Positions 16,195 through 64,000 of a stretch of DNA of 64,000 nt are shown piece after piece. The notes under the pieces were generated by a model that made no database searches, was not told where the DNA came from, and saw only the letters and a program-made list of their open reading frames with translations. The stretch is from a phage. The translations under genes were made by a program, and so were the position numbers. Location of the stretch: the sequence record PZ379177.1; one strand, written 5' to 3'. How positions within the stretch are numbered: the first letter of the stretch is position 1; every line of letters begins with the position of its first letter.

Positions 16195-18603
16195 TCAACC
16201 TTGCTTCGGTGAATTAGTAGGATTATTGAGTGCTCCGTATGCTTGAGAGCAATCACCCTTCAACCACTCCTTGAATGAGTTCACATCTAATTCGTGGATT
16301 GAGTCGAATCCGTTCCAACCGTTACCAAATGATGCTTGATAAGCTTCTTTCGCTTCTTCTGCTGAATCGAATCCAAGCATACACTTGTGTTCATCAAACT
16401 CGCCAGAGTAGTTATCGTTTTGGTTCACGATAAAGACTTTCGGCGACTTCAGATTTGGACCCACAAAGCAGTCGACTTCATCACCGTCTGCGCCCTTGGT
16501 GCCCTTGATGAATCCGTAGTGGTGCGGCATCTTCACGGCCCATTCACCGTCAAGGCTGTTTCCTCTACGAATGCTGTTTCGCGGATTCTCAATGCCAAGA
16601 ATCATTCCGTGCAACTTCATCTTAGGTAATGATGCTGCGTCCATTTTACCCACGTTGTGGCGTAAGTTGACGACGTGTCCTTTAACGCTTGGAAGGGTAG
16701 ACGGTTGCACCGACCGTGAATCTTTTTGAGGGTCAAAATCCACATCCTGACCTTCTTTCAGGTAGTAATCCGCAATACCCTCCAGCCCTTCTTTCAACTG
16801 CGTTAGGACATCAACCTGATGGCTTGATTCATCACCGGTATCGTCCATGTTGATTTCGACAGGCGCTTTGTCAGGGTTTTCCGCCAACTCACCACGCGCA
16901 GCACCCTCTGGCATAATACCTGTTTCGCTATAGAACTGGCCGCCCATCTTAACGACATCAGCTTTCGCCTGTTCAATATCGGCCTTACCTTGCAGGACTT
17001 CACCAGCAGACTTGCCAAGCAATGCCATATTCTCTGGAGACATCCCTGGGGTTTCTTCTGCTGCGTCTTCCGGCAGACGGTTGTAGCCGCTGTTTTTGTC
17101 GTCTTTGATGCGGTCGCGCTCTTCATCAGGAGAAATGACGCCAGCATCAATAAGAGTTTTGCCAGTGTTGGCTCGCTTATCATTGATTTCTGCAAGTTGA
17201 GTAGCAGTAAGTGAGCCAACTGGTTCCCATGCAACCTTAACATCGACATCCACCCCTTCTGATTTGAGAAGGATTTTGTAATGGCGGTCGAGAATTTTTG
17301 TCAGGTCATGCTGCTGGCACGTTTCCAACTCTTCGTGATAGCTGACCATCTCGAATTCACCAGTGGCGTTAAAGCCTTTTGGCGAAGTCCCAAGCAGTTT
17401 GGTCGACGGAACTTTTGCGATTGCGGCCACAAGCTGGTACTGGTTCATGATGATGCTGTCGAAGTCTGACAAGTTGATGTCAAACTGGTCCATCTCTTCT
17501 TTTTGGCCAAGCACTTTGACTGCATAGTTGTCGCGGTACTTGATCCACATCATCAGACGTTCTGCAAAAGACCGCTCATTGGCAATAGCCTTGTCAACGT
17601 CGGTCCGCAGCGTCGTTGTACGCTTGGACATCGCCAGCAATGGCGCTTCGTTGGCGGTACGTTCAGCGGCATAGATGCGTTCATAAATCTGCTGAGTCAG
17701 AGGGATGCCGCCGTAAATATAAGTCGGCTTGAGAATATCAGCTGGCTCATCGTTGCGCAAGATTATGAGGTGGCTGCGATGATAACGTTGTCCGCTGATT
17801 ACCCAATATTCTGGGTCATAGAAGTGCTGTGATGCAGGGTCTGCCGTGTTTTCAGACGTCAGAAACGGCATCATCCAATAAGGGTCAACCTGAATGATTC
17901 CCTTATAAGACCCCTTTGTCACACCATCAATGTTAAAAGGCTTGCTGTAATATTCTGGGTCATCGCTACGCACATCAAATATGATGACGCGGATACCAAA
18001 AATATTTTTGAATCGTTCGGCTTCAACTAAGTGCTCTTTGATATTAAATTCTTTATCAATTTGCTTTAGGCGTTCGCTTGCCTGTACTGACAATTCTGAC
18101 TCAGAACTGGATTTGACTTCCCAACCTTTACGGACCGCATCGCGGCCTACCATGGAACACGCCTTGTTCACCAGCCAATGCTGTGCGATGATGGCACAAG
18201 CTTGATAGCCGATGAATGACTGTGACAGATACCAGTTTTGAAGTTGAATAGGTACTGTGTATGGGTTGACTTGCCCTTCTGAACTGATGTTCTTTAAGGC
18301 ATTATCCATAACCTTTTTGGATACTGTTGCGGAATCGACTGAACGACCTTTTATGATTGCAACACCATCGCCATTAATATCAGGCTCATATAAAGGGAAG
18401 TCATCAACCGTTTTAAAGGTCGGTCGATTGCTTTCAGTCTTTTCCCAGCGTTGACCGCTGCCGCGCCTTTCAAGGCGTTCAAACGGTGCCAATGGGTCGC
18501 CTGGCGGCATCTCCGCTGGTTCGGCTTCTGGTTGCGTCTTCTCCCAGAGTTTTATGCCAAGAATTTTCATTGTTAACGCCACCTGACAGTGAAAGGGAAT
18601 CAA
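16195..18603 (-). CDS. portal protein with C-terminal inorganic pyrophosphatase-like domain
   Basis: 802 aa between terminase and Mu-F-like gene; C-terminal HHYGFIKGTKGADGDEVDCFVG and AEEAKEAYQASF resemble family I PPase YGYINHTLSLDGDPVDVLV and AEAAKAEIVASF. Confidence 0.6.
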   Translation of the reverse strand: MIPFHCQVALTMKILGIKLWEKTQPEAEPAEMPPGDPLAPFERLERRGSGQRWEKTESNRPTFKTVDDFPLYEPDINGDGVAIIKGRSVDSATVSKKVMDNALKNISSEGQVNPYTVPIQLQNWYLSQSFIGYQACAIIAQHWLVNKACSMVGRDAVRKGWEVKSSSESELSVQASERLKQIDKEFNIKEHLVEAERFKNIFGIRVIIFDVRSDDPEYYSKPFNIDGVTKGSYKGIIQVDPYWMMPFLTSENTADPASQHFYDPEYWVISGQRYHRSHLIILRNDEPADILKPTYIYGGIPLTQQIYERIYAAERTANEAPLLAMSKRTTTLRTDVDKAIANERSFAERLMMWIKYRDNYAVKVLGQKEEMDQFDINLSDFDSIIMNQYQLVAAIAKVPSTKLLGTSPKGFNATGEFEMVSYHEELETCQQHDLTKILDRHYKILLKSEGVDVDVKVAWEPVGSLTATQLAEINDKRANTGKTLIDAGVISPDEERDRIKDDKNSGYNRLPEDAAEETPGMSPENMALLGKSAGEVLQGKADIEQAKADVVKMGGQFYSETGIMPEGAARGELAENPDKAPVEINMDDTGDESSHQVDVLTQLKEGLEGIADYYLKEGQDVDFDPQKDSRSVQPSTLPSVKGHVVNLRHNVGKMDAASLPKMKLHGMILGIENPRNSIRRGNSLDGEWAVKMPHHYGFIKGTKGADGDEVDCFVGPNLKSPKVFIVNQNDNYSGEFDEHKCMLGFDSAEEAKEAYQASFGNGWNGFDSIHELDVNSFKEWLKGDCSQAYGALNNPTNSPKQG

Positions 18604-22523: not shown

Positions 22524-24866
22524 ATGCCAAGGCTAATATTCAAAAACAACTTTGAGGTCGCGCTCGCTCAGCCAACGACGACTTCAAACACCACAATCAC
22601 AATTCGCTCAGGGTCGGGCTTTCCGACCTTGGGCGCAAACGAGCGTGTAGTGGCGACAATCGTTGACGCTGCAACAGGCCTCCAATTCGAAATCGTCACA
22701 GTAACAGCCGTTGTTGGAAACGTCCTGACCGTGCAGCGTGCACAAGAAGGAACTGCAGCGCGTGCATGGGCAGCTGGCGATTTACTTTCCATTCGAACAA
22801 CTGCCGCGACTTTGACGGGTACTGTCCGAAACTTTGGAGAGATTCCCTCAGGCATCAACCTTAATGCGCTTACTGGCAGCTGGTTCGGTCAGTATTATCA
22901 ACCTTCTAGTGGCGCAGCATCAACTGCGCTTAATTACCCACTCCAATCGTCTGGCGTGCTGGAAGTAATTCAAATTTCAGCAAATGCTTGCTCACAAAAA
23001 TACACTACCACAGTAGGTTTTGAATATAATAGAACATTTGATGGCGCATCATGGTCACCTTGGAAGAGGGTTTATAGCGAACTCGATGTAATCCCAGTCT
23101 CCAACGGTGGTACAGGTCAAACTACCATCCAAGGAATGAAGTCTGCTTTTGGATTCGGGCAAGTCGCTGATCAGAATATTGTTCCTACTTCGATGGGCGG
23201 CACAGGCTCAGCAGACAACGCTCAAGCATGGCTAAATATTCGTCCACAAGGCTCAACACCGCTTGCTGGCGACCCAGTTAACGACTATGATGCGACAACT
23301 AAGCGTTGGGTTGAGAACTTAGTTAACACAGGCACCGTTGGCCCAAGTATGAACGGCGTCATGAACTATGGTGTTGGTGATTTCCATCTTCGCAATAGTA
23401 GATCATATATTCAGCAATACGAAGTCGTTGCAGACGGGCAATTACTAAACCGTGCTGACTGGCCTGAACTTTGGGCATATGCACAGATGCTTTCACCCAT
23501 TGCAGATGCCGATTGGCTTGCGGATAAGTTCAAACGTGCAAAATATTCTTTAGGCAACGGAACAACGACATTCCGTGTCCCAGACCTTAACGGTGTCCAG
23601 ACAGGTTCTGTACGGGCGCTGTATGGGCGCGGCGATGGCGGAAACTCCACTGCGAACGGTCAAATATTCGAATCTGCCGCGCCAAACATCACAGGCTCAG
23701 CCGCAGGTGTATCGGCAGGCACTTATGCGCAAATTTTTGGCACAGCCGTCCGAGGTGCTTTTTACACAAACAATGATTTGTACCCTCAAGGCGCTGGCGA
23801 CACCATACCTGTTGGAAGCGGTGCAGTAGAGGGTCGTCTCAATACAATAAATATTGATGCATCCAGATCAAGCCCGATTTATGGAGCAGCAACTGACGAA
23901 ATCATGGGCCGCAACTTTGTAGGCATTTGGGTTATTCGTGCATCGGGCGGATTTGTTGCCGCGAATACGCAATGGCAAGTTATCAATGCTGATGCTGTTC
24001 GCCCAGGGTCTGGAGTGAAGGCATCTTCTGGACAGGTAAAGGCACAATACAAAATTGGGACGACAGTTGAAGCAGAAGCAGGATTGCGAAGCGATGCATA
24101 CATGGATGGTATGTATTACGCAATAATGTCTGTCTACAACAAAACAAAAGGTGTTACAAAGGAATTTGCATTTGGCGATGATGGAATGCTGAATGGTGAC
24201 AGATACACTGCAAGATATGGCACATTGATGGCTTGGAGTGAGACTGGTACTAGAAGGGGAACATTCTCGATTGAGAACCAGTCACTTGCGGCGAACTATG
24301 CATTCAATAGTCTGCTCAGTGGTGGGCAATCGGTATCAGCAGGATATTATACTTCTACACACTTTGGCATGATTCACAATGACGGTGGAAGCTTTGCTCA
24401 ATCGTGCTGGCACGTGGTTGGTGACGAAAACAACGGGTATGGTTGCCGATTGGCGATTCAACCAAACAACGATAACATATTCTTTTATCGTTGGGTGCCT
24501 GGTGATACCGCTACTTATACACTTGCAAAGAATGCTGTGTCTGATGAAAGGCTTAAATCTGATATCACTGATGTCTCTGTTGATAAGGCTTGGGCGAATA
24601 TTGCTGCGCTTAACTTTGTTAATTTCGTCTATAAGTCCGATGAACAGCAAAGGTTGCGGCGCGGCATCATAGCACAGCCTACAGAGTTAATTGAGCCTCT
24701 TTATGTTAAAACTCGTAAATTTTACGACGACAACAATGTGCAACAAGAGCAAAAGGAGCTTGACACAACTCCAATGCTTCTTGACACGATGCACGTGGTT
24801 CAGGAGTTGATGAAAAAGGTTGAGTCACTAGAGGCAGAGATAGCCGCGCTGAAATCAGCAAAATAA
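22524..24866 (+). CDS. tail fibre protein with C-terminal intramolecular chaperone (peptidase S74-type) domain
   Basis: 780 aa; C-terminal block SDERLKSDITDVS...ALNFVNFVYK...GIIAQ typical of auto-cleaving fibre chaperone domains. Confidence 0.7.
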   Translation: MPRLIFKNNFEVALAQPTTTSNTTITIRSGSGFPTLGANERVVATIVDAATGLQFEIVTVTAVVGNVLTVQRAQEGTAARAWAAGDLLSIRTTAATLTGTVRNFGEIPSGINLNALTGSWFGQYYQPSSGAASTALNYPLQSSGVLEVIQISANACSQKYTTTVGFEYNRTFDGASWSPWKRVYSELDVIPVSNGGTGQTTIQGMKSAFGFGQVADQNIVPTSMGGTGSADNAQAWLNIRPQGSTPLAGDPVNDYDATTKRWVENLVNTGTVGPSMNGVMNYGVGDFHLRNSRSYIQQYEVVADGQLLNRADWPELWAYAQMLSPIADADWLADKFKRAKYSLGNGTTTFRVPDLNGVQTGSVRALYGRGDGGNSTANGQIFESAAPNITGSAAGVSAGTYAQIFGTAVRGAFYTNNDLYPQGAGDTIPVGSGAVEGRLNTINIDASRSSPIYGAATDEIMGRNFVGIWVIRASGGFVAANTQWQVINADAVRPGSGVKASSGQVKAQYKIGTTVEAEAGLRSDAYMDGMYYAIMSVYNKTKGVTKEFAFGDDGMLNGDRYTARYGTLMAWSETGTRRGTFSIENQSLAANYAFNSLLSGGQSVSAGYYTSTHFGMIHNDGGSFAQSCWHVVGDENNGYGCRLAIQPNNDNIFFYRWVPGDTATYTLAKNAVSDERLKSDITDVSVDKAWANIAALNFVNFVYKSDEQQRLRRGIIAQPTELIEPLYVKTRKFYDDNNVQQEQKELDTTPMLLDTMHVVQELMKKVESLEAEIAALKSAK

Positions 24867-53818: not shown

Positions 53819-55338
53819 AAACACAAGGAATGCGCCACCAATTATTGGCGCTTGATAAAGCAGGCCGCAGAAAATACTTTGCTTATTTTATGGAGCAGGG
53901 TCTTGGCAAAACCTGGACTGCTTTGGCAGAGTTTGAAAAGCACTTCACTGCTGGCGCGTTCGATGCCATGGTCGTCATCGCTCCAAACGGTGTCCACTCC
54001 AACTGGATTCGTCGTGAAGCACCAGAACACCTTTCCATCAAGTGGATTGGGCACTACTGGCGCGGCAACGACAAGATGAAGACTAAAAAGGGCAAGGCGC
54101 TTTGGGAGAAGATGTTTGCTGATCACTACCCTGAAGGCGAAGTGCCTGCGCGCATCTTCTCATTCAACATCGATACCGTCAACACACCAGTAGGTTATCA
54201 ACACATCGAGTCGGTCTTGAAGAAATACCGCTGCCTGATGATCATTGATGAATCGACTCGCATCAAAAATAACACAGCAAAACGCTCCATCAAGGTCGTG
54301 GAGTTGGGTCGGCTGGCAAAGGCCCGTCGAATCCTTTCTGGCACGCCGTTGCCGCGCTCGCCTGCGGATATTTACATGCAATATCACTTCCTTGAAGCAG
54401 GCTTGCTCGGCACCAAATCTTTCCGCGCCTTCAACTCTGAATTCACTGTGCTACTTGAAGCGCACGACCCAGAAATGCAAGCCATCCTCAAGAAAATCGG
54501 CGGCAATGGCTATGGGATTCCGCAAGTGCCGCGCAAAGACCAGTTTGGCCGACCGATGTACAAAAACCTTGACAAGCTTATCCGGCTGATGGAACCGCAC
54601 TATTTTCGTGCGACAAAAGCGGAATACTTGCCTGACCTTCCAGAGAAGGTGTATAAGTTTATCGACTTCGAGCTGTCGCCTAAACAACGCGATGTCTACG
54701 ATGAACTCAAGAATGAGTACAACTATTTGATGGAATACAAGGGCGAAGAAGAAAACGTCAAGTTTGAGATGATCGCATCTCGCACTAAGATGAAGCAGGT
54801 GACATCAGGCTTTGTTAAGGTGTATGATGAGATGGTCTACATGGAAGACAACCCACGATTCACAGCCTTTAAGGATTATGTGGAAGGGGTGCTGGAAGAC
54901 GACCCAGAGCGCAAATTCATTGTTTGGGCCATCTTTAAGGAAGAGATGAACCAGATTAAGGACTGGCTTGAGTCTGAAGGCGTGGTCACTGGTGTGTACA
55001 ACGGTGAAACATCAAAAGAGCAGCGCGAGTTCTTGATTGATGACTTCCAGAAAAACACAGTCGAGAACGGTGGAACGCAAGTGTTGGTGTGTCACGCAGC
55101 TGCGGCAGGCATCGGAATCACGCTTACCGCCGCCGACTTGGCAATCTATTATTCTTGCAACTATGACAACGAGTTGCGAAAGCAATCCGAAGACCGAAAT
55201 CACCGCATCGGCACCAAATCAAGCGTGTTGTATGTTGATTTTATTGGCGTTGATACCATCGACGAAGAAATTCAGCGTTCACTGAGCATGAAATCTATGC
55301 TTGCTGATCACATCCTCGACGGCAAAAAGATGAATTAA
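53815..55338 (+). CDS. SNF2-family helicase
   Basis: Walker A GLGKTWTA, DExx box MIIDESTRI, C-terminal helicase domain. Confidence 0.7.
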   Translation: MKTQGMRHQLLALDKAGRRKYFAYFMEQGLGKTWTALAEFEKHFTAGAFDAMVVIAPNGVHSNWIRREAPEHLSIKWIGHYWRGNDKMKTKKGKALWEKMFADHYPEGEVPARIFSFNIDTVNTPVGYQHIESVLKKYRCLMIIDESTRIKNNTAKRSIKVVELGRLAKARRILSGTPLPRSPADIYMQYHFLEAGLLGTKSFRAFNSEFTVLLEAHDPEMQAILKKIGGNGYGIPQVPRKDQFGRPMYKNLDKLIRLMEPHYFRATKAEYLPDLPEKVYKFIDFELSPKQRDVYDELKNEYNYLMEYKGEEENVKFEMIASRTKMKQVTSGFVKVYDEMVYMEDNPRFTAFKDYVEGVLEDDPERKFIVWAIFKEEMNQIKDWLESEGVVTGVYNGETSKEQREFLIDDFQKNTVENGGTQVLVCHAAAAGIGITLTAADLAIYYSCNYDNELRKQSEDRNHRIGTKSSVLYVDFIGVDTIDEEIQRSLSMKSMLADHILDGKKMN

Positions 55339-55412
55339 TATCAAAAATAATTTGACTTGTCATGGAAGATGAGTCATAATTACTTCATCGAAACGAAACA
55401 GAGGAATACAAA

Positions 55413-55676
55413 ATGGTACGCATCCTTGAACGTTACAAAAATGAAGCTACTGGCGCAATCGCTTTCAAACGTCTTTTGGTCAAAGAAATTGACGGGATGT
55501 TCCGCGTTGTTAAAGAGTTTGATTATGGCAACGGTGCTGGGGTGAATACCGTTATTATGCCTGGCATCAAGGCGTATAAAACCTTGAAAGGCGCTGAGAA
55601 GGCTTTGGCGGCTTGGAAGCCTGAACGTTATCAAATGACCCGTGTTGAAGGGCTAATGCAAGAAGGTAAAATATGA
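55413..55676 (+). CDS. hypothetical protein
   Basis: 87-aa ORF. Confidence 0.4.
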   Translation: MVRILERYKNEATGAIAFKRLLVKEIDGMFRVVKEFDYGNGAGVNTVIMPGIKAYKTLKGAEKALAAWKPERYQMTRVEGLMQEGKI

Positions 55677-56230
55677 GCAATATTAATTGGGAAGATGATT
55701 TGCCGCAGGTCGCTCCTGAGAGCATTCAAGAGCGCCTTGCGCGCTTAGTATCTGAACTGGCAGAACGCCAAGAAGCTTTGACAGAGCTTGAAGATGAAGC
55801 TGATATGCAAAAGCAGCGAATCAGTGAAATCAAAACTGTTCTGCTTCCTGGCGTTATGGATGAGCTTGGCGTGTCCGAAATCAAGCTTGAGGACAAGACC
55901 AAAATCAAGGTCGAGTCCAAGGTGAATGCTTCAATCAAGAAAGAAAACGAATTAAAAGTTTTCGATTGGCTTGTCAACAACGGTTACGGCGGCTTGATCA
56001 AGTCCAGCGTCACGGCTGAGTTCGGTCGCGAAGAAATCGAACAGGCGCAAGAGATTGTTGCCGCGCTGCGTGAAGATGGTGTTGAAGTCACATTGAAACA
56101 AGGCGTTCATTCTGCTACACTGAAGTCATTTGTAAAAGAACAGCTGGAAGCAGGCAATCCAGTTAGTGAAGATATTAGCGTTTTTGAATACAAAGAAGCT
56201 AAAATAACCTTGCCTAAAAGCAAAAAGTAA
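55673..56230 (+). CDS. hypothetical coiled-coil protein
   Basis: 185-aa acidic ORF. Confidence 0.4.
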   Translation: MSNINWEDDLPQVAPESIQERLARLVSELAERQEALTELEDEADMQKQRISEIKTVLLPGVMDELGVSEIKLEDKTKIKVESKVNASIKKENELKVFDWLVNNGYGGLIKSSVTAEFGREEIEQAQEIVAALREDGVEVTLKQGVHSATLKSFVKEQLEAGNPVSEDISVFEYKEAKITLPKSKK

Positions 56231-56289
56231 TTTAACCTTTATCTTGAAATCAGGTTGCCACGAAACTTGATACTATAGGAAAATATCAA

Positions 56290-57150
56290 ATGTCTAAGAA
56301 AGAAACTACCGAAGTTGCAGTGAAAAACACCCAGATGTCCGCTATGGCTGATTTTGTCGACATGACCGATTTTGGCGCTGGTTTTGAAGGTGCCGATGCC
56401 GATGCATATGCCATTCCTTTTATCGTCGTGCTGCAGAAGATGTCTCCTATGGTCGACGAAGATGATCCAAAACACGTTCCTGGCGCAAAAGCTGGCATGC
56501 TTTACAACACCGTTACTGGTGAGTTGTATGACGGCAAGAAAGGCGTGCAGATCATTCCTTGCGCATTCAAACGTACCTTCATTCTTTGGGGCGGTCGCGA
56601 GTCCGACGATAAAGGCTTTAAAGGTGAATTTACCAAAGAGCACGTTGATGCAGAAGTAGCGGCAGGCCGCGCTGTTGAGATCAACGGTAAAGTATTTGTG
56701 CCGGACGAAAACGGCAAGGTGCACGAGAAGAAGTCTCCTTACTACGCAGATACACGTAACCACTTCGTAATTCTGTTGAACGAAGAAACGGGTGAATTTG
56801 GTAGCGCAATGCTGTCTTTGACTTCTTCCATGATCAAGCCGTCTCGCATGCTGATGACCGCTCTGCAGCAGAAGAAAGTTCAGACTCCGCAAGGTCTGAA
56901 AACGCCGCCGACCTTTATGAACATCGTTCGCATGGGTACTGCATCCCAGTCCAAAGACGGCAACACCTGGTCCGTTCTTAAGTTTGAGCTGGAAGGTCTG
57001 GTGCAGGACAAAGGTCTGTACGAAGTCGCCAAGGCATTCCACAACGACGTAGTTGGCGGCAACGTTAACATCGACCGCAGCAAGCAAGAAGAAGCAAGTG
57101 GCGCTGCTGGCCCTGTCAATGAAACTCCGACCGACGCAGAAGAGTTTTAA
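56290..57150 (+). CDS. possible ssDNA-binding protein
   Basis: acidic C-terminal tail ending in Phe (TPTDAEEF), as in T7 gp2.5-type SSBs; replication-module context. Confidence 0.35.
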   Translation: MSKKETTEVAVKNTQMSAMADFVDMTDFGAGFEGADADAYAIPFIVVLQKMSPMVDEDDPKHVPGAKAGMLYNTVTGELYDGKKGVQIIPCAFKRTFILWGGRESDDKGFKGEFTKEHVDAEVAAGRAVEINGKVFVPDENGKVHEKKSPYYADTRNHFVILLNEETGEFGSAMLSLTSSMIKPSRMLMTALQQKKVQTPQGLKTPPTFMNIVRMGTASQSKDGNTWSVLKFELEGLVQDKGLYEVAKAFHNDVVGGNVNIDRSKQEEASGAAGPVNETPTDAEEF

Positions 57151-57169
57151 TCGACAATCAAATCAACAA

Positions 57170-57198
57170 GGCTGCCGATTGGCGGCCTTTTATTTATC
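57170..57198 (+). terminator. rho-independent terminator
   Basis: hairpin GCTGCCGATTGGCGGC followed by CTTTTATTTAT. Confidence 0.45.
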
Positions 57199-57207
57199 TG
57201 GTGCATC

Positions 57208-57726
57208 ATGATAGAAAGAATTGTACCGCTCCTGAAGATTCTGGCCCTTGTTGGCGCATTTGCCGCTGGATCATACGTTGAAGACCTGCAGCAAACCAAC
57301 GCATCACTGGCCAAGGATAATCAATATCTGACATCGCTTAATGAGCGTAAGGACAAGATAAATGCACTCGAAGAGCAAATTGCATCTTTACAGGTTGAAT
57401 CGGCATCGGCATATGAGAAGGGTCGCCAGGAAGCGCAACTGGTTGCTGATGACACTATTGCTAGTTACAAGTCTGGGAATATCAAGCTGCGCGAGCAACT
57501 CAGCTGCTCCCGTGAGTTACTCAGGAGTATGCCCGACTCTGCGACCACTGGACGCCTCTCTATCCCAGAAGGAAACTGTGGACTATCAGAAGAAGATGTC
57601 AGATTTCTTGTTCAGTTCGCCGCAGAAACAAACCGATTAAAAGAGAAGGTTAATAGCTTGATTGATACTTATAATCAGGCTAAAATAAAAATCGATCAAT
57701 TCAATGCATCAAAGGAAAATAAATGA
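57208..57726 (+). CDS. i-spanin (Rz-like)
   Basis: N-terminal TM helix IVPLLKILALVGAFAAG followed by long coiled coil; contains nested o-spanin ORF in another frame. Confidence 0.5.
   Translation: MIERIVPLLKILALVGAFAAGSYVEDLQQTNASLAKDNQYLTSLNERKDKINALEEQIASLQVESASAYEKGRQEAQLVADDTIASYKSGNIKLREQLSCSRELLRSMPDSATTGRLSIPEGNCGLSEEDVRFLVQFAAETNRLKEKVNSLIDTYNQAKIKIDQFNASKENK
57413..57640 (+). CDS. o-spanin (Rz1-like lipoprotein), nested within i-spanin gene
   Basis: MRRVARKRNWLLMTLLLVTSLGISSC signal with lipobox ISS-C; short Pro-rich mature part. Confidence 0.45.
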   Translation: MRRVARKRNWLLMTLLLVTSLGISSCASNSAAPVSYSGVCPTLRPLDASLSQKETVDYQKKMSDFLFSSPQKQTD

Positions 57727-58316
57727 AACAGATTTATGCAAACATTCGCCAGTGGGCTTCTGACCGTAACATCATCCAAGGTTGCGACCTTAAGGACCAA
57801 TACCCGAAGCTTATCAGCGAGTTTGGGGAGTTAACCGACCACGTTGATCAACTCCATGACCTTGTGTTCTTTGACCCTGAAATCGGATATACAGAGCAGG
57901 CCATTTGTGATTTGCAAGCCGCAATCAAGGACGACATCGGTGATTGCCTTGTTGTGTTAACTATTCTTGCCGCGCAAAATGGTGCAAAAATCGAAGACAT
58001 CAACGGCGGCGGTTGCGCTGACAAAGGCGCTCACCCTCATTCCTTTATCCTTCGCTTGGCGAAGACTCTCGGACGGCTTGGTGACGCCATTGCTAAAAAT
58101 CAAAGCATGGATATTGATGTCACTATCATGGCCGCAGTCGATTATCTTTCCGGCGTAGCGCATGATTATGGACTTCGACTGTCTGATTGCGCTCAAGCCG
58201 CCTATGAAGACATCAAGGACCGTAAAGGTGTGATGTACAACGGAACGTTTATCAAATCGACTGATCAGGCTTATGCCTATGCGCTGGAACAAGTGATGAA
58301 TAAGGAGTTTGAGTGA
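57723..58316 (+). CDS. MazG-like nucleotide pyrophosphohydrolase (putative)
   Basis: helical protein with EFGELTDH and DDIGDCLVVL motifs resembling MazG EExxE/D boxes. Confidence 0.35.
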   Translation: MKQIYANIRQWASDRNIIQGCDLKDQYPKLISEFGELTDHVDQLHDLVFFDPEIGYTEQAICDLQAAIKDDIGDCLVVLTILAAQNGAKIEDINGGGCADKGAHPHSFILRLAKTLGRLGDAIAKNQSMDIDVTIMAAVDYLSGVAHDYGLRLSDCAQAAYEDIKDRKGVMYNGTFIKSTDQAYAYALEQVMNKEFE

Positions 58317-59290
58317 TGGCAGGAGAAATCAAAGCATTAAAACCAATGAAAGGTTGCCAGCGTAAACAAATCATCGAGCGCGGCGAAGATGTGCCGCTGC
58401 CTTGCGGATTATCCTTCAAGGTCGATGGAATACGCGCGATGGCGTATGACAACTTGCCAATGGGCACATCCGGCATGGCACTGCGCAACATTCAAATCAA
58501 AAAAGAGTTCCTATTCTTGGGTGAATTGATTCACGGACTTGATGGAGAGCTAATTGACGGTAATCCGAATGACAAGAACGTCATGCAACAGGCCTATACT
58601 GCATGCATGAACACTGATGCAATCACTAACTTTACATGGTGGGTGTTTGATGACTTCAGCGACCCTGATTTGCCTTTTGAAAAGCGTTATGCAAACTATC
58701 GCGCTAGAGTTGCTGAAGTCAATCAGCACCTCATCAACCATGGTCGACGCCCATTCCTTCGCGCTCTCGAATATCGAAACATCGAAAATATGGAACAGTA
58801 CGCGGCGATGCAAATCGAAGCAGACCAACTTGGCTATGAAGGCTTGTATGGCAAGTCTTGGACGGGCAAATACAAGCATGGCCGCGCGACGCCAAAGTCA
58901 CGTGATGTGTGGAAGGACAAGCCGTGGACCGATGAGGAAGGACTGATCATAGACTTCGTTGAGATGATGGAGAACAACAACGAAGCATTCATTGATGAGT
59001 TGGGTCGCACTAAGCGTTCGAAAGAGGCTGAAGGCTTAGTTGCAAAAGGATACCTTGGATCATTTGTGGTTGTCAATCCAAAATATGTTGATGAGAAAGG
59101 TGAAATGATTCCTTTCCGCGTCTCCGCTGGTTCAATGCCTATGGCAGAGAGAAAAATGCTTTGGGAGAATCGCGAGAATTATCGCAACAAGTATCTGACA
59201 TATAAATTCTTCAACTTTGGCATCGTTGACGTGCCGCGCTCTGCCTTGTATAAATGCTTCCGTGATATTACCGATATGGAGTATTTTTAA
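58316..59290 (+). CDS. ATP-dependent DNA ligase
   Basis: adenylation motif I SFKVDGIRAM (KxDGxR); ATG shares its A with the upstream TGA stop. Confidence 0.6.
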   Translation: MAGEIKALKPMKGCQRKQIIERGEDVPLPCGLSFKVDGIRAMAYDNLPMGTSGMALRNIQIKKEFLFLGELIHGLDGELIDGNPNDKNVMQQAYTACMNTDAITNFTWWVFDDFSDPDLPFEKRYANYRARVAEVNQHLINHGRRPFLRALEYRNIENMEQYAAMQIEADQLGYEGLYGKSWTGKYKHGRATPKSRDVWKDKPWTDEEGLIIDFVEMMENNNEAFIDELGRTKRSKEAEGLVAKGYLGSFVVVNPKYVDEKGEMIPFRVSAGSMPMAERKMLWENRENYRNKYLTYKFFNFGIVDVPRSALYKCFRDITDMEYF

Positions 59291-59363
59291 CACACTGGAT
59301 AAATAATTGGTGCGTATAATCTATCGCGCCGTTTTCTAGAATTTAATATACAGTGTATACATA

Positions 59364-59393
59364 AAGCCGGAAATTTCCGGCTTTTCTTTTATT
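59364..59393 (+). terminator. rho-independent terminator
   Basis: hairpin AAGCCGGAAATTTCCGGCTT followed by TTCTTTTATTT. Confidence 0.5.
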
Positions 59394-59465
59394 TACTTTC
59401 GGCGTATTTACTTTCAAAACCTTGAGCCTATACTATTAATATTCATAATCAAAAGGTGAATTATA

Positions 59466-60008
59466 ATGAAAGCGAACAAATTAAAGATTGTTTTGATCAT
59501 CATCATGGCTATGCTGACAGTTATATTCTTCACCAAGACTGCATCGGCTGAAAATATGTTTACGCCGCCGAATGGAAGTGCAAAAGTTTTGACAAGATAT
59601 TTCAACAATGGGCAGTCATTTGAGTTTTGCTGGAATAAATACGACGTAATAAAAGAAAGATTTGACAAAGAAAAGATGTGCGTAATGAATGATCGCGGTC
59701 GGCAGGTCGTGTCGTTTGTGTTCGGAATGTCAATGGCAAAAGTTGATGCCCCTGAAATCGTTGTCAGGTATAATACATTGGACAGCGGCCTTGTCGACAA
59801 GACATACCCTGTTGCAGTAGACAGCAGGACAGGCGGCGCACTAATACTCACTCCAGAAGATAAATCAGATGTCGTTAACATGCTCATCAACAGCAAAGAC
59901 GTAATCGTGTTTTATCATATTGAAGGCGTATCAGACTACCAAATGGCCTACTATCCACTGCCCTTGAGAGATTCTTCAGGTAATGTTAAGACACAGGAAG
60001 CGCGTTGA
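59466..60008 (+). CDS. secreted/periplasmic protein of unknown function
   Basis: signal-peptide-like N-terminus MKANKLKIVLIIIMAMLTVIFFTKTASA. Confidence 0.45.
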   Translation: MKANKLKIVLIIIMAMLTVIFFTKTASAENMFTPPNGSAKVLTRYFNNGQSFEFCWNKYDVIKERFDKEKMCVMNDRGRQVVSFVFGMSMAKVDAPEIVVRYNTLDSGLVDKTYPVAVDSRTGGALILTPEDKSDVVNMLINSKDVIVFYHIEGVSDYQMAYYPLPLRDSSGNVKTQEAR

Positions 60009-60235
60009 CATGGGTGGTAGTTATGCAGAAAGATTTGGAAGAAAACAAAAGGCTGAAAAAGGCTTTGACGTCTCAAATCTTGTCCCTGTTGGTAAAGCTT
60101 ATTGGGGAGTCAATTAGCAACAAGGTGGCACGGGCCGCGATTGTGGGTGCAATTGGTATGGCGGGTTATTATTTCGACTTACCAGACATTGATACAAGTT
60201 CCGCTCCGCCCGTCCAAGTTGAAGCCGTAAAATAA
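60005..60235 (+). CDS. small membrane protein (holin candidate by context only)
   Basis: 76 aa with one hydrophobic helix AAIVGAIGMAGYYF; converges on endolysin gene. Confidence 0.3.
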   Translation: MTWVVVMQKDLEENKRLKKALTSQILSLLVKLIGESISNKVARAAIVGAIGMAGYYFDLPDIDTSSAPPVQVEAVK

Positions 60236-60237
60236 AC

Positions 60238-60262
60238 AAAGGCCCATATGGGCCTTTTTTCT
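60238..60262. terminator. bidirectional rho-independent terminator between convergent genes
   Basis: hairpin AGGCCCATATGGGCCT flanked by A-run upstream and T-run downstream. Confidence 0.55.
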
Positions 60263-60906
60263 TACATAACTGCTAGTGCATCTTTGTAACGCTTTCTTCG
60301 CAACTCACCGTGGTTTGCTGCATTCGGCGCGGCCCCGTTAATCCGCTTAACGGTTGAATCAAAATTTCCTGCATCCGCAAGAGGAATACAGCCGCTATTC
60401 TTAAAGAACCATGCCGCGCTGTCAGCAATGTATTTTGGTTCAGTCAGAATATCAGGATTGTTCAATGCATCGTATCCTGATTGACGCGTATATTCCGCAT
60501 AGTTGGCCTTGCCAGTAAGCTGAATGGCACCACGGCCACGATACTTCCAACCGTCGCCAGATGATACCGAACCGTTGCCCATGCGGTTTGCATATGTATT
60601 ATTGGCGATTTCCACAGGTTTACGTGCAATCGACAGGGCCAATGAGTTCGGGGCGCTTCCAGAACGACCGTTGACGCTGTAACGACTAGGCCATGTATTG
60701 GCAAGACCTTGAGCAGAGTAGTTGAGATTTTCCACAAAGGTCTTCAAGCTGCCCGTTTCTACTCCTACGTTTGCAAGGAATGCCGCGATGGCATTCTTGC
60801 TTTTGATTCCGTAGTGCTCACAAGCCTGCTTGAAAGGGTCCACCCATTTCTCTGCAACATCCATGCTGCATCCGGTCCCTTTAGATATTACGTTTGCGTT
60901 AATCAT
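60262..60906 (-). CDS. endolysin, glycoside hydrolase family 19-like
   Basis: motifs FLANVGVETG and GRGAIQLTGKANY. Confidence 0.65.
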   Translation of the reverse strand: MINANVISKGTGCSMDVAEKWVDPFKQACEHYGIKSKNAIAAFLANVGVETGSLKTFVENLNYSAQGLANTWPSRYSVNGRSGSAPNSLALSIARKPVEIANNTYANRMGNGSVSSGDGWKYRGRGAIQLTGKANYAEYTRQSGYDALNNPDILTEPKYIADSAAWFFKNSGCIPLADAGNFDSTVKRINGAAPNAANHGELRRKRYKDALAVM

Positions 60907-60914
60907 AAATCACC

Positions 60915-62759
60915 TTATGCGCTTCTGTACCAGCCATTCAAAACAACGTATCGCGGCAAAGTCGCAACAGCCGTTGGCACCGACTGCCCTGCATTGCCAG
61001 TGTTACCGACCACATCGTGAGTGTGAGCGGGAAGGGTATAGCTGTGGCTGTGATTGCCAGCGTAATTTATATTCAACCCATGGGTGTGTGATCCAGAAGA
61101 TTGAATATTATGAACGTGGTTGCCATTAGTTGACGTATTGTATTTGTAGTTATCCCAGTCGCCGCCTTTGCGACTTCCGAAGTTGTTGTGTGTCCCATCA
61201 TAAACGCCGTACCGCGCATCGCTAGTATTGGCTTCACCCCAGCTACTGTCATGGTGGTGGTTGCCTGCCGTGTCCATTCCGTGCACGTGAGCGCCGTTTT
61301 GACTGGTATCGCCTGTGTGGTTGTGGTTGCCTGCGTCTCCAGTGGTATTGGACCATGGACCACTTTGTCGCGTGGTAATGTTCACACTGTGATTGTGGAG
61401 AGGAAGCATGGCGGCGGTAAGGGTAACAGAGTCTGCTCCGCCTGTATCAAGACCGTTTCGTGCAGCGCCGGACGTTCGAATCACCATGTTATCAGGCAGT
61501 CGTGTCCATACCTGGCCGTAAGCGCCCAGTTTAGTATTCGGGTTGGTCCCGTTGGTGAGGAATCGAGTCTCACCGACTTCGAACACATCACCCATAGTGA
61601 TCAACTTCGCAGCCAAAGCATCGAGTTGGCGCTTTGTAACAAACTGTTGCGGCTCAGTAGCATCAACGCCGATTTGCGCCGCGCCAAACGCCTGAAGGAG
61701 ACGCCAAACAGTTCCGTCATAAATGATGGTGAATGGCAGCAATCCTACGATAGCGCCAGCTGGCAACTCGCCGCCGTCGAATCCAAGAACGGCAACTTTG
61801 TTTACACCAATGGTCACGGTGACAGGTCCGGTAGTCGTTACATCATTGACGATTGTCAGGCGACTACCTGCTGACGGAGGCCATGAATACCCTGCTGGAA
61901 CGGTGAGAATTATATCTTGCGCGCCTTTACCTGATGCAAGATTCGGCGTTCCAATTTGCACATCTTGAACAGTGGCATTTTGAATCCAAGCACTCCAAGC
62001 ACCAGAAGTATAAGAGCGAGTAAACAAATAGCCATTCATTGATGTATATTGCTGCAAGGCAAAGGTTTGCGCATCGACCTGCCAAGCGCAGACCTGCAGT
62101 CGACCTGCAACCTTCGTTGCGCCAACCGCATTCGGGATGTTAGAGCACAGAGCGGCGACGGCATAGGATTGAATGACGATAGTTGTGGATGTCGTGATGT
62201 TATCGAAGTCCACAAAACTTGAAATCAATCCGCGAACAAAGTACGGGTTTTGCGCATCGCCGCCAGCAGGCATCGGAATGTATTTTCGCGCTTCGCTGGG
62301 CAGTGTTAATTCCTGCCAAGATTCCGTTTCTCCGTTAGCTGGTACGGCGCTTGTGTTGCCGTCGACCACGCTCTGAAAGATGCGCCACTCAGGTGCTGAA
62401 GGCGTTCCAGAGTTGCTGACAACGATGGCATTTTTCGGGTATCCATCAGGCTTCAAGTCAGAAGAGAAATATTGTTGAGCGCCATGATCTTGAATAAACA
62501 TAAGGTTGTCTGTGATCAAATTCAGCAACCAGTTCATCGATTCGCGCTCAACAGCTTTCGCGGCGACGTTTCCAGCCTCCAGAGCAAGCGCATAGTCAGG
62601 GGTGTAGCCGCGCTGGAAGTTTACATAACCGCTTGGGCTTGCATCCGGCACCACGGATACATCACCGCTTTGCGCGAAAGGTCTGTTAATAAGTGTTGGC
62701 ATTGCCGTTCCTCTACACGATGTATTTAATTTTTGATAAAAGGGTCGATGCCCAATCAC
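60915..62759 (-). CDS. tail fibre protein with His-rich C-terminal repeats
   Basis: 614 aa; C-terminus has repeated HxH and GNH motifs (NHNHTGD, HVHGMD, NHHHDS, HVHNIQ, HTHGLN, HSHSYT, HTHDVV). Confidence 0.55.
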   Translation of the reverse strand: MIGHRPFYQKLNTSCRGTAMPTLINRPFAQSGDVSVVPDASPSGYVNFQRGYTPDYALALEAGNVAAKAVERESMNWLLNLITDNLMFIQDHGAQQYFSSDLKPDGYPKNAIVVSNSGTPSAPEWRIFQSVVDGNTSAVPANGETESWQELTLPSEARKYIPMPAGGDAQNPYFVRGLISSFVDFDNITTSTTIVIQSYAVAALCSNIPNAVGATKVAGRLQVCAWQVDAQTFALQQYTSMNGYLFTRSYTSGAWSAWIQNATVQDVQIGTPNLASGKGAQDIILTVPAGYSWPPSAGSRLTIVNDVTTTGPVTVTIGVNKVAVLGFDGGELPAGAIVGLLPFTIIYDGTVWRLLQAFGAAQIGVDATEPQQFVTKRQLDALAAKLITMGDVFEVGETRFLTNGTNPNTKLGAYGQVWTRLPDNMVIRTSGAARNGLDTGGADSVTLTAAMLPLHNHSVNITTRQSGPWSNTTGDAGNHNHTGDTSQNGAHVHGMDTAGNHHHDSSWGEANTSDARYGVYDGTHNNFGSRKGGDWDNYKYNTSTNGNHVHNIQSSGSHTHGLNINYAGNHSHSYTLPAHTHDVVGNTGNAGQSVPTAVATLPRYVVLNGWYRSA

Positions 62760-63945
62760 CAGTCAAGTCAGTTATATTCATGCTTGAAACATAACCGCCA
62801 GCAGCACTTCTTGGAAAGTTTACTGTCGCTACAACATCACCATTCGAAGCTATCAATTGAACTCCAGTCGCCAGTGACCCTGGGTTTTTGATGTATATAG
62901 AAGTTGCAGTTTTCTTTGCAAAATCTTCGCTTGTTGAAATCGCAAGCGCATTCATCGTATTACCAGAAACAAGCATCAAGCTTAAAATATCAAGTTCAAG
63001 AGTCGTACCAACTTCGGTCGGCAAGTCTTTCCCTGATATCAAACCGATGCTGATTCCACCTGTCGAACCATCCCAAGTCGTTCCTGCAACAATCTCAGCG
63101 GCAAGGTCAATTTCGATACGTTGCAAATCACCTGCGCCTATGCTGTAGAATTTAGGGATATAGCCGCCCATACCATCCGGTACGGTTACGAAAAGTTTTT
63201 GACCGTTCACCGTGTTGTTTTTAACTATTGCGATAAATGACAAAGGACCAGTCAGGCTGCCAGTGTATTTAGTAGCAAGTACAGCGCGTGCATAGCCGGA
63301 CGATGGCACAGTCCCTATTGTAGCGGAAAGCTTGAATGATGGAAACTGGTTGGGCACACCGCTTATTGGCGTTGCCGTTACCGTGTTGCCTCCGTCCTTG
63401 ACAATATTGCCAAAAGATGTGCCGTCATTGGGCTGTGTGTATCGCCAGTAGTTTGTGATCGCGGCACGTGGGATTTCACGACCAAAGTCATCTCTTGATG
63501 CTTTTGAGATTGAATAGTCGTTGACAAGTGCGCCGTCGATAACTTGGTTCACACCTTTCAAAGATTCAAGCTGTCGTATTACACCTTTGAAGTTGTTCAG
63601 CGACCACTCGTTTATGCCGCCAACTCTGATGATGCCGTCAGTGTTAATCCATGCGACACCTTCCGTTTCGAATCCTACTCGCGTGTCTGTTATGTTGCTG
63701 ACAGTCAAATCAATATCAGATAAGTCTGCGACTTCTTGGTAAAGCTGCCAACGTATCCCAGCGTTTGCTGGCAAGAATCCTTCATTCCTGTCGCCAACTA
63801 GCGTCTTAAAGTTATCAGACAAGTTGTTGGCAAAATAAGGCCCGATGACATATTCCATGTAATAGTCAGCGGTCGGCGGCGGCGGTACGCCGTCCAATCG
63901 GCTAACGTTCCATGAGCGTCTGATGCCGTCAGTCTCTGCAATCAA
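62713..63945 (-). CDS. tail fibre/baseplate-associated protein (putative)
   Basis: 410-aa ORF upstream of tail fibre in same operon; a further upstream gene probably continues beyond the window edge. Confidence 0.4.
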   Translation of the reverse strand: MIAETDGIRRSWNVSRLDGVPPPPTADYYMEYVIGPYFANNLSDNFKTLVGDRNEGFLPANAGIRWQLYQEVADLSDIDLTVSNITDTRVGFETEGVAWINTDGIIRVGGINEWSLNNFKGVIRQLESLKGVNQVIDGALVNDYSISKASRDDFGREIPRAAITNYWRYTQPNDGTSFGNIVKDGGNTVTATPISGVPNQFPSFKLSATIGTVPSSGYARAVLATKYTGSLTGPLSFIAIVKNNTVNGQKLFVTVPDGMGGYIPKFYSIGAGDLQRIEIDLAAEIVAGTTWDGSTGGISIGLISGKDLPTEVGTTLELDILSLMLVSGNTMNALAISTSEDFAKKTATSIYIKNPGSLATGVQLIASNGDVVATVNFPRSAAGGYVSSMNITDLTGDWASTLLSKIKYIV

Positions 63946-64000
63946 TGTTGCGTTTCCTGGGTACGGGTAGCCGCCGATTGAACCAGAGTACGCAAGTGAT

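What the first reader, a model, noticed from the sequence alone, without database searches (positions are those of the whole stretch)
60915..61500. His-rich HxH repeats at the tail-fibre C-terminus
The C-terminal roughly 150 residues of the 614-aa fibre contain at least seven HxH or HHH motifs interspersed with Gly/Asn/Thr. This resembles metal-coordinating fibre tips, where HxH repeats bind iron along a beta-helix. It would be the receptor-binding tip, and a GH19 endolysin is encoded immediately downstream.
Basis: partly seen in the sequence, partly recalled or inferred. Interest (0 to 1): 0.35.

Follow-up and report, generated by a model that had tools for sequence, protein, structure and literature searches.

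The report
T4-like histidine-rich tail fibre tip
The histidine repeats are real and mark a tail-fibre tip of the same kind as the iron-binding needle of phage T4's long tail fibre, but this was already described in 2025 for a 95.6%-identical fibre of a sister phage, so it is an ordinary, known feature.

Summary
The window is a Wifcevirus, an E. coli myovirus about 96% identical in DNA to EC150, TH35 and WFH. The ORF at 60915..62759 (-) is its conserved tail fibre. The real start is the ATG at 62702, giving 595 aa.

It carries eight HxH motifs at ORF aa 455-581 (window 61397..61017). These hold 17 of the 18 C-terminal histidines (shuffle P = 2e-5).

A profile of 34 homologous C-terminal domains hits the T4 gp37 tip (PDB 2XGF) at E = 8e-12. 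hhalign gives 98.3% probability, with seven of the eight motifs aligned one-to-one to gp37's seven iron-binding HxH. The same profile hits the T4 gp10 C-terminal domain for the collar.

The motifs lie 4 + 4 around a 44-aa insert. This fits gp37's out-and-back needle, so the distal tip is that insert and not the C-terminus. The insert is also where the orthologues differ.

The N-terminal 370 aa match the Pa193 gp47 baseplate anchor and shaft. A GH19 endolysin follows after 8 nt.

Humolli et al. 2025 modelled the Bas99 orthologue with AlphaFold 3 and reported a T4-like tip with conserved HxH motifs.

Metal binding and trimer geometry were not testable here. Verdict: observation confirmed, interpretation supported, already known, low interest.

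The parts
60915..62702 (-). Tail fibre gene: 595 aa plus stop. The listed 614-aa ORF from GTG 62759 over-extends into the upstream gene.
   Evidence: ATG at 62702 is preceded by AGGAA (62712-62708), and the upstream ORF's TAG is at 62715-62713. Orthologues are annotated as 594-595 aa starting MPTLINRPF. phrog_5717 'tail protein' E = 1e-175. dN/dS is about 0.02-0.04 outside the head.
61587..62702 (-). N-terminal baseplate anchor and shaft (ORF aa 20-391), Pbunavirus gp47 type.
   Evidence: phmmer against PDB: 9b45 'gp47 Tail fiber', E = 4.9e-31, aa 20-391 aligned to chain residues 3-368. Pa193 gp47 residues 1-350 form the baseplate-attached beads of six trimeric fibres (PMC11456595).
61410..61586 (-). 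Collar, N-terminal half (about aa 392-450; boundary approximate). Contains the conserved P407, W418 and G441.
   Evidence: Family profile A1 positions 2-66 align to the T4 gp10 C-terminal domain 2fkk, E = 1.4e-4. 31 of 34 homologues match Pfam PF21939 Gp10_C. AF2 monomer pLDDT is 86-97 here.
61251..61409 (-). Outward needle strand (aa 451-503) with HxH motifs 1-4: LPLHNH 455-457, GNHNH 479-481, GAHVH 491-493, GNHHH 501-503.
   Evidence: Motif positions. Motifs 1-3 align to gp37 HxH 1-3; motif 4 has no gp37 counterpart. His 491/493 are invariant, and 455/457 and 479/481 are at least 90% conserved in A1.
61119..61250 (-). Head insert (aa 504-547). This is the predicted distal tip where the chain turns back. 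Signature WGE...RYGVYD...DxDNYKYNTST.
   Evidence: It lies between the two blocks of four HxH. 14 of 44 positions vary among five Wifcevirus orthologues, against 26 of 551 elsewhere (Fisher P = 1e-7). dN is 0.16 here against 0.01-0.03 elsewhere. The same head subtype occurs in about 25 of the 154 retrieved homologues, with needles of 3-13 HxH.
61005..61118 (-). Return needle strand (aa 548-585) with HxH motifs 5-8: GNHVH 548-550, GSHTH 558-560, GNHSH 570-572, PAHTH 579-581.
   Evidence: Positions. Motifs 5-8 align to gp37 HxH 4-7. His 548/550, 570/572 and 579/581 are invariant in A1.
60918..61004 (-). Collar, C-terminal strand(s) (aa 586-614), ending LPRYVVLNGWYRSA.
   Evidence: G591, W610 and R612 are invariant in A1. 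It aligns to the last strand of gp10_C, 'PYITVYRWIRIA'. AF2 monomer pLDDT is about 95.
60262..60906 (-). GH19-type endolysin, co-oriented and starting 8 nt downstream of the fibre stop.
   Evidence: Pfam Glyco_hydro_19 E = 1.2e-7, 32.2 bits against cutoff 25.5. phrog_181 endolysin E = 1e-69. Annotated as endolysin in Bas99, Kyle and others.
60238..60257 (.). Bidirectional terminator-like hairpin that closes the fibre-endolysin transcription unit against the convergent plus-strand genes.
   Evidence: AAAGGCCCATATGGGCCTTT followed by a T-run on both strands. This is a consensus match only.
62713..64000 (-). 3' part of the upstream baseplate gene (orthologue of Bas99_0030, 912 aa), cut by the window end. 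It probably corresponds to the fibre-attachment (triplex) protein.
   Evidence: ORF list. phrog_4797 E = 2e-67. Synteny with Bas99_0030 and Kyle gp52. In Pa193 the gene before the fibre (gp46) carries the fibre-attachment loop. Equivalence with gp46 is inferred from position, not tested.

Best explanation
This is the conserved tail fibre of a Wifcevirus. It is built from two modules.

The N-terminal ~370 aa are a Pbunavirus-gp47-type baseplate anchor and beaded shaft. By analogy with Pa193, there would be six trimeric fibres per baseplate.

The C-terminal ~225 aa are a T4-gp37-type receptor-binding tip. A small collar domain (gp10/gp12-like) gives rise to a long needle. In the needle, each chain runs outward (four G-x-H-x-H motifs), forms a small head (aa 504-547) and runs back (four more motifs) to finish in the collar. 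In the trimer, each HxH from the three chains would supply six imidazoles around the three-fold axis and bind one metal ion octahedrally. That gives up to eight ions per fibre (Fe2+ in gp37; identity unknown here). The ions would rivet the intertwined strands into a rigid rod. The head at the far end would touch the cell surface.

Shown here: the motifs, their conservation, homology to gp37, gp10_C and gp47, and the 4+4 layout.

Inferred: trimer geometry, metal occupancy and receptor contact.
For: - Eight HxH motifs that are non-random.
- The histidines are the invariant columns across 34 and 86 homologues.
- Among five Wifcevirus orthologues all flanking His are invariant. The middle 'x' of motifs 2, 3 and 4 (aa 480, 492, 502) varies. 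The family-wide x is T/S/N/A and the preceding residues are G plus a small residue. This fits inward-facing His on a strand.
- Profile A1 hits 2XGF (gp37 tip) at E = 8.1e-12 and 2FKK (gp10 C-terminal domain) at 1.4e-4.
- hhalign gives 98.3% probability, E = 2e-14, with collinear motif-to-motif alignment.
- HxH counts before and after the largest gap differ by at most 1 in 132 of 150 homologues, with counts of 3-17. An out-and-back hairpin predicts this.
- The AF2 monomer is confident for the collar (pLDDT 80-97) and not for the needle and head (~50). This is expected if the needle only folds as an intertwined trimer.
- The tip aligns over its full length, at 27-35% identity, to Felixounavirus fibre tips. 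Cryo-EM of those shows collar, HxH needle and head (PMC12609058).
- The N-terminus matches 9b45 at E = 5e-31.
- A published AF3 trimer of the Bas99 orthologue has interface pTM 0.64 and is described as T4-like with conserved HxH for ion coordination.
- Iron at gp37's HxH sites is reported as critical for folding (PMC6957217).
Against: - The protein itself passes no Pfam threshold and has no single-sequence PDB hit in its C-terminal part. Homology to gp37 rests on the family profile and on a compositionally biased repeat. This could inflate scores, although the alignment is collinear and includes non-His positions.
- Metal identity and occupancy are unknown. According to my recollection of the literature, which was not checked here, T4 gp12 binds Zn rather than Fe.
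- The motif HHH 501-503 has no gp37 counterpart and is not universally conserved in the family.
- The mapping of the paper's 'Gp32' to GenBank Bas99_0031 is inferred. It is the only HxH fibre in the tail locus, but the numbers differ by one.
Confidence: 0.85

Rival explanations
1. The fold is the same, but the fibre is not a host-range receptor binder. It would act mechanically, for example as a spacer, a trigger, or a generic LPS-core 'short-fibre-like' anchor. Host specificity would lie wholly in the second, T-shaped fibre.
For: Humolli et al. note that the fibre is highly conserved across the genus and suggest 'a more mechanical role'. All four of their isolates depend on O16 O-antigen, which they attribute to the variable T-shaped fibre. 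That fibre is present here at 22524..24866. Overall protein identity among orthologues is 91-99.7%, with dN/dS about 0.02-0.04.
Against: The little variation there is concentrates in the head insert: 14 of 44 positions against 26 of 551 (P = 1e-7), with dN 0.16 against 0.01-0.03 elsewhere. There are two deep head alleles. This is the pattern of a surface that meets something variable. The same head subtype is reused on unrelated prophage fibres, as receptor-binding modules are.
Confidence: 0.25
2. The HxH ladder stabilises the needle without metal, through histidine stacking and hydrogen bonding, or binds metal only adventitiously.
For: Nothing here measures metal. Sequence conservation of His alone cannot separate metal ligation from other packing roles.
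Against: In the homologous gp37 needle, each aligned HxH holds an iron ion, reported as critical for folding. The strict H-x-H spacing with a free x is the ligand geometry seen there.
Confidence: 0.07
3. 'Trojan horse' reading: the fibre-bound iron is functional bait that lets the phage dock on siderophore or iron-uptake receptors.
For: The hypothesis is discussed in the literature for HxH-bearing fibres (PMC11705849). Up to 8 ions per fibre on 6 fibres would give 48 ions per virion (arithmetic).
Against: In the gp37-type needle the ions are buried on the three-fold axis, not exposed (description). Wifcevirus isolates depend on O-antigen. No evidence here links the fibre to iron receptors.
Confidence: 0.03
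4. The histidine repeats are chance low-complexity sequence, or an artefact of reading the wrong frame or strand.
For: The region is G/N/T/S/H-rich. Overlapping ORFs exist on the other strand and in other frames (61188..61874 +, 61073..61363 -).
Against: Shuffle P = 2e-5 even with the local composition kept. The histidines are invariant across distant homologues. There is strong purifying selection in this frame. The gene is annotated in this frame in all orthologues.
Confidence: 0.01

Closest known systems
Conserved tail fibre of Wifcevirus phages ('Gp32' of Escherichia phage ManiWeber/Bas99; GenBank Bas99_0031), Humolli et al., PLoS Biol 2025 (PMC11990801)
   Same: It is the orthologue: 95.6% aa identity over the full length and the same position between the baseplate gene and the endolysin. 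[quoted passage not shown]
   Different: The window's allele differs mainly in the head insert: window/Eco4M-7 type against Bas99/WFC type. The paper gives no motif count, no out-and-back mapping and no metal data. It stresses conservation rather than the head-localised variation.
T4 gp37 long tail fibre receptor-binding tip (PDB 2XGF)
   Same: It has a collar, an HxH needle and a head, with the chain doubling back. Its seven HxH motifs align one-to-one with seven of the eight here. In gp37, each HxH from the three chains coordinates one iron.
   Different: There are eight motifs (4 out + 4 back) here against seven (3 + 4) in gp37; the extra one is HHH 501-503. The head is 44 aa of a different sequence type (WGE...DxDN), against about 30 aa in gp37. 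The collar is closer in sequence to gp10_C than to gp37's collar. The tip sits on a 595-aa single-protein fibre attached directly to the baseplate, not at the end of a four-protein long fibre. No gp38- or gp57-like chaperone gene is adjacent; the endolysin follows directly.
Felixounavirus tail fibres (Bas63 gp26 STF and gp27 LTF; FelixO1 tail fibre)
   Same: Their C-terminal tips align with this one over the full 224 aa at 27-35% identity. Cryo-EM shows a gp37-like collar, HxH needle (six to seven motifs) and head.
   Different: The N-terminal anchors and shafts differ, as do the motif number and the head.
Pseudomonas phage Pa193 gp47 tail fibre (PDB 9b45; Pbunavirus)
   Same: N-terminal aa 20-391 are homologous (E = 4.9e-31). 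This part is the baseplate-binding loops plus beaded shaft, and there are six fibres per baseplate.
   Different: The 962-aa gp47 has an unrelated distal part, with no alignment beyond aa ~391 and no HxH needle match.
T4 gp10 C-terminal domain (PDB 2FKK; Pfam PF21939 Gp10_C) and the related gp11/gp12 head domains
   Different: gp10_C has no long HxH needle insertion. The window protein itself does not reach the Pfam threshold.

Membership tests
T4 gp37-type receptor-binding tip (collar-needle-head, PDB 2XGF) | Multiple G-x-H-x-H motifs in the C-terminal domain | tested here: met
   Eight motifs at aa 455-581. Shuffle P = 2e-5. The His columns are invariant or nearly invariant in the family.
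T4 gp37-type receptor-binding tip (collar-needle-head, PDB 2XGF) | Detectable sequence homology to the gp37 needle | tested here: met
   Family profile against PDB: 2xgf_A at E = 8.1e-12. hhalign 98.3%, E = 2.2e-14, collinear. The single sequence gives only a weak result: no phmmer hit and pairwise BLASTP E = 3e-4.
T4 gp37-type receptor-binding tip (collar-needle-head, PDB 2XGF) | Chain runs out to a small head and doubles back, so HxH motifs fall in two balanced blocks around a central insert | tested here: met
   4 + 4 motifs around a 44-aa insert. In 132 of 150 homologues the two blocks differ by at most 1 motif, although totals range from 3 to 17. This is indirect, sequence-level evidence only.
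T4 gp37-type receptor-binding tip (collar-needle-head, PDB 2XGF) | Homotrimeric intertwined needle with the HxH histidines facing the three-fold axis | not testable with these tools
   Only monomer prediction is offered. Needle pLDDT is ~50 in both monomer models, and no coordinates are returned. A published AF3 trimer of the orthologue supports the feature (interface pTM 0.64).
T4 gp37-type receptor-binding tip (collar-needle-head, PDB 2XGF) | One metal ion (Fe in gp37) octahedrally bound per HxH triplet | not testable with these tools
   This needs metal analysis or an experimental structure.
T4 gp37-type receptor-binding tip (collar-needle-head, PDB 2XGF) | Head domain contacts the host receptor | not testable with these tools
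   Circumstantial evidence only: variation among orthologues is concentrated in the head.
Pfam PF21939 Gp10_C (collar frame) | HMM score above the gathering threshold | tested here: not met
   No Pfam family for the whole protein at E <= 0.1 or for the C-terminal 225 aa at E <= 10, apart from PF14928 at 0.71. However, 31 of 34 aligned homologues match PF21939, and the family profile hits gp10_C 2fkk at E = 1.4e-4. It is a divergent relative by transitive evidence.
Pfam PF03335 Phage_fiber (14-aa HxH-type fibre repeat) | HMM score above the gathering threshold | tested here: not met
   Not reported for this protein. 10 of 34 homologues match.
Pfam PF07484 Collar / PF14928 gp12 receptor-binding domain | HMM score above the gathering threshold | tested here: not met
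   PF07484 is absent. PF14928 scores E = 0.71, 10.7 bits against a cutoff of 23.8.
Pbunavirus gp47-type fibre (N-terminal anchor and shaft, PDB 9b45) | Sequence homology over the baseplate-binding and shaft region | tested here: met
   E = 4.9e-31, aa 20-391 against chain residues 3-368. phrog_4900 E = 8e-45 over aa 20-395.
Wifcevirus conserved tail fibre (orthologue group) | More than 90% identity over the full length and conserved synteny (baseplate gene - fibre - endolysin) | tested here: met
   29 phage records at 91-99.7% identity over 100% of the length. Synteny holds in Bas99, WFC, ECML-117 and vB_Eco4M-7.

The most novel reading that the evidence does not exclude
The 'conserved, mechanical' fibre may in fact contribute to host recognition. 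Its distal head (aa 504-547) belongs to a distinct, reusable head subtype (W-G-E ... R-Y-G-x-Y ... D-x-D-N ... T-S-T). This subtype is mounted on needles of very different length (3-13 HxH) in unrelated phage and prophage fibres, for example in Xenorhabdus. Within Wifcevirus it exists as two deeply diverged alleles that look exchanged by recombination. If so, head swapping on a metal-riveted needle of adjustable length would be a modular way to retarget a secondary receptor, and the head allele would predict part of the host range.
Probability: 0.3. Interest if true: 0.35.

Novelty: already known. Interest (0 to 1): 0.12.

Why it matters
It matters little beyond correct annotation. The gene should be labelled a tail fibre with a T4 gp37-like, HxH metal-binding needle tip, not 'hypothetical protein' as in most Wifcevirus records. 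The receptor-facing part should be placed at aa 504-547 rather than at the C-terminus.

For phage engineering, head swaps should therefore target that insert and leave the eight HxH rungs intact. The head-localised variation is a small caveat to the published view that this fibre is invariant.

Tried and rejected
- Single-sequence searches of the C-terminal domain gave nothing: no PDB hit at E <= 10, and in Pfam only PF14928 at E = 0.71. A family profile was needed.
- The word-indexed homologue search found only 5 proteins. The exhaustive representative search found 304.
His-to-axis geometry therefore could not be tested.
- The record ECP_WGS_SA1 was dropped from the variation analysis because its sequence has runs of N that read as X.
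- dN/dS in the head could not be computed because synonymous sites are saturated. Positive selection is therefore not claimed, only elevated divergence.
- The chance or wrong-frame explanations, and the PF07484 Collar and gp12 receptor-binding-domain assignments, were considered and rejected (see the rivals and membership rows).
Full report
**What the window is.** Megablast of 55000-64000 finds 29 phage genomes covering at least 80% of the query at 90-97% identity. All are Escherichia or Shigella phages of the genus Wifcevirus (EC150, TH35, WFH, ECML-117, Bas98-101). tblastn with the ORF finds 29 records with the same protein at 91-99.7% identity over its full length. The target is therefore the conserved tail fibre of a known genus of E. 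coli myoviruses.

**Checking the observation.**
- ORF 60915..62759 (-) is listed as 614 aa.
- It contains eight H-x-H motifs at ORF aa 455, 479, 491, 501 (HHH), 548, 558, 570 and 579, which is window 61397..61017.
- These account for 17 of the 18 His in the last 174 aa, and that stretch is rich in G, N, T, S and H.
- With local composition preserved, shuffles give a mean of 1.75 motifs, and 8 or more in 2 of 100,000.
- No other ORF in the window has more than two HxH.
- The ORF start is over-called. The upstream gene ends with TAG at 62715-62713, followed by AGGAA and then the ATG at 62702. All annotated orthologues start there, at 594-595 aa.
- The gene 8 nt downstream (60262..60906, -) is a GH19-type endolysin.
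- A bidirectional terminator-like hairpin at 60238..60257 closes the unit.

**Anatomy of the fibre.** The N-terminal part (aa 20-391) matches chain 9b45 'gp47 Tail fiber' at E = 4.9e-31. This is the fibre of Pseudomonas phage Pa193. Its first ~350 residues were built into cryo-EM density as the baseplate-binding loops and beaded shaft of six trimeric fibres (PMC11456595). Beyond aa ~391 the two proteins are unrelated.

The C-terminal 225 aa have no single-sequence hit in PDB or Pfam. An exhaustive HMMER search found 304 representative relatives. Retrieved homologues with a C-terminal HxH cluster end in a similar hydrophobic-strand/W-x-R motif. They carry 3-17 HxH motifs, usually preceded by G plus a small residue and with a T/S/N/A middle residue.

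In an alignment of 34 such domains, the invariant and nearly invariant columns are mostly the HxH histidines, plus P407, W418, G441, G591, W610 and R612.

**Homology of the tip.** A profile of that alignment hits two structures:
- The T4 gp37 receptor-binding tip, 2XGF, at E = 8.1e-12, over the HxH region.
- The T4 gp10 C-terminal domain, 2FKK, at E = 1.4e-4, over the first ~65 and last ~25 profile positions.

hhalign of the profile against the gp37 segment gives 98.3% probability and E = 2.2e-14. The alignment is collinear:
- Motifs 1-3 here pair with gp37's first three HxH.
- Motifs 5-8 pair with its last four.
- Motif 4 (HHH 501-503) is extra.

31 of the 34 homologues match Pfam PF21939 (Gp10_C), and 10 match the 14-aa Phage_fiber repeat PF03335. 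The window protein itself reaches neither threshold, so it is a divergent member recognised transitively.

The same tip aligns over its full length, at 27-35% identity, to the tail-fibre tips of Felixounavirus phages. [quoted passage not shown]

**How it most likely works.** In gp37, each HxH from the three chains coordinates one iron on the fibre axis. There are seven irons along the needle, and they are reported as critical for folding.

Here the motifs are split 4 + 4 by a 44-aa insert (aa 504-547). Across 150 homologues, the numbers of motifs before and after the largest gap differ by at most one in 132 cases, even though totals vary from 3 to 17. An out-and-back hairpin needle whose two arms must stay equal in length predicts exactly this.

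I therefore place the distal, cell-facing head at aa 504-547. The C-terminus (LPRYVVLNGWYRSA) returns to the collar. There would be up to eight axial metal sites per trimer.

Natural variation agrees with this layout. Among five Wifcevirus orthologues:
- Every flanking His is invariant.
- The middle residues of motifs 2, 3 and 4 vary (aa 480, 492, 502).
- 14 of the 44 head positions vary, against 26 of 551 elsewhere (Fisher P = 1e-7).
- At the DNA level, dN is 0.01-0.03 in the shaft, collar and needle and 0.16 in the head.
- dS is about 0.5 outside the head and saturated inside it. This indicates two old head alleles exchanged by recombination on a strongly constrained scaffold.
- The head belongs to a recognisable subtype (WGE...RYGxY...DxDN...TST). 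About 25 of the 154 retrieved homologues share it, with needles of 3-13 HxH. One example is a Xenorhabdus prophage fibre, 67% identical over the head.

**What I could not show.** Only monomer prediction is available.
- With 34 sequences the model had pLDDT 61.6.
- With 86 sequences it had pLDDT 73.4: the collar was confident (80-97), but the needle and head stayed at ~50. This is as expected for strands that only pack in a trimer.
- Foldseek found nothing.

His geometry, trimer state, metal identity and receptor binding are therefore inferences from homology, not results.

**Comparison with the literature.** Humolli et al. (PLoS Biol 2025, PMC11990801) isolated four Wifcevirus phages (Bas98-101). 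[quoted passage not shown] The model was made with AlphaFold 3 and has interface pTM 0.64. They add that this fibre is highly conserved in the genus and may have 'a more mechanical role'. In their account, a second, T-shaped fibre with gp12-like and T5-like binding domains varies and probably targets O-antigen.

The Bas99 orthologue (GenBank Bas99_0031, 'tail protein') is 95.6% identical to the window protein and sits in the same place. The paper's number differs by one from the locus tag. I infer the identity because this is the only HxH fibre in the tail locus. The T-shaped fibre is present in this window at 22524..24866 (+).

**Verdict.** Four corrections apply:
- The fibre is 595 aa, not 614.
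- The structure is an intertwined needle rather than a beta-helix.
- The distal tip is the central insert, not the C-terminus.
- Receptor binding by this particular fibre is plausible but unproven.

The feature is already known for this genus and belongs to a well-known kind. The only mildly new points are the explicit 4+4 mapping onto gp37's seven iron sites, the balanced-arm rule across the family, and the concentration of variation in a reusable head subtype. Interest is low.

Noticed in passing
window 16195..18603 (-): The 802-aa portal protein (Phage_portal_3, aa 133-479) carries a C-terminal InPase domain (Pfam PF18823 'Inorganic Pyrophosphatase', aa 660-782, E = 3e-46). The same domain matches PHROGs of giant virion-associated and DarB-like proteins. 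A portal with an enzyme-like C-terminal domain may deserve a look.
   Followed up: partly
window 22524..24866 (+): There is a second tail fibre of 780 aa: phrog_6921 at E = 1e-209, a Peptidase_S74 intramolecular chaperone at aa 673-718, and a weak Collar match at aa 340-357. It corresponds to the variable T-shaped dual-binding-domain fibre described for Wifcevirus. It is encoded far from the tail locus and on the opposite strand.
   Followed up: partly
window 61119..61250 (-), ORF aa 504-547: The head insert of the fibre has two deeply diverged alleles among Wifcevirus genomes: window/vB_Eco4M-7 type against WFC/ECML-117/Bas99 type. dN is 0.16 here against 0.01-0.03 elsewhere, synonymous sites are saturated, and there is a one-codon indel at aa 532. 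The published description stresses that this fibre is invariant.
   Followed up: yes
proteins P0001, P0009-P0013, P0096 and others (representative search): The same head subtype (WGE...RYGxY...DxDN...TST) sits on needles with only 3-4 HxH in prophage fibres such as Xenorhabdus bovienii, and on needles with up to 13 HxH in others. Head and needle length therefore seem to be independently variable modules.
   Followed up: partly
window 57208..57726 (+) and 57362..57640 (+): A 92-aa ORF is embedded in another frame inside a 172-aa ORF. The pair is annotated as Rz-like spanin and o-spanin in Bas99. The spanins lie about 2.5 kb from the endolysin and on the opposite strand, so the lysis genes are split between two transcription units.
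   Followed up: no
window 60238..60257: A perfect 8-bp palindromic hairpin (AAAGGCCCATATGGGCCTTT) has T-runs on both strands. It lies between the endolysin and the convergent plus-strand genes, and is a likely bidirectional terminator.
   Followed up: no
L006 (Pantoea phage PA1) 2998..4866 and L007 (Pantoea phage Kyle) 3001..4887: Kylevirus phages of Pantoea keep the same fibre-then-endolysin synteny and the same two-module fibre, at 31-36% identity. Their needles are longer: Kyle has 9 HxH, and the related representatives P0007 and P0030 have 12 and 11.
   Followed up: partly
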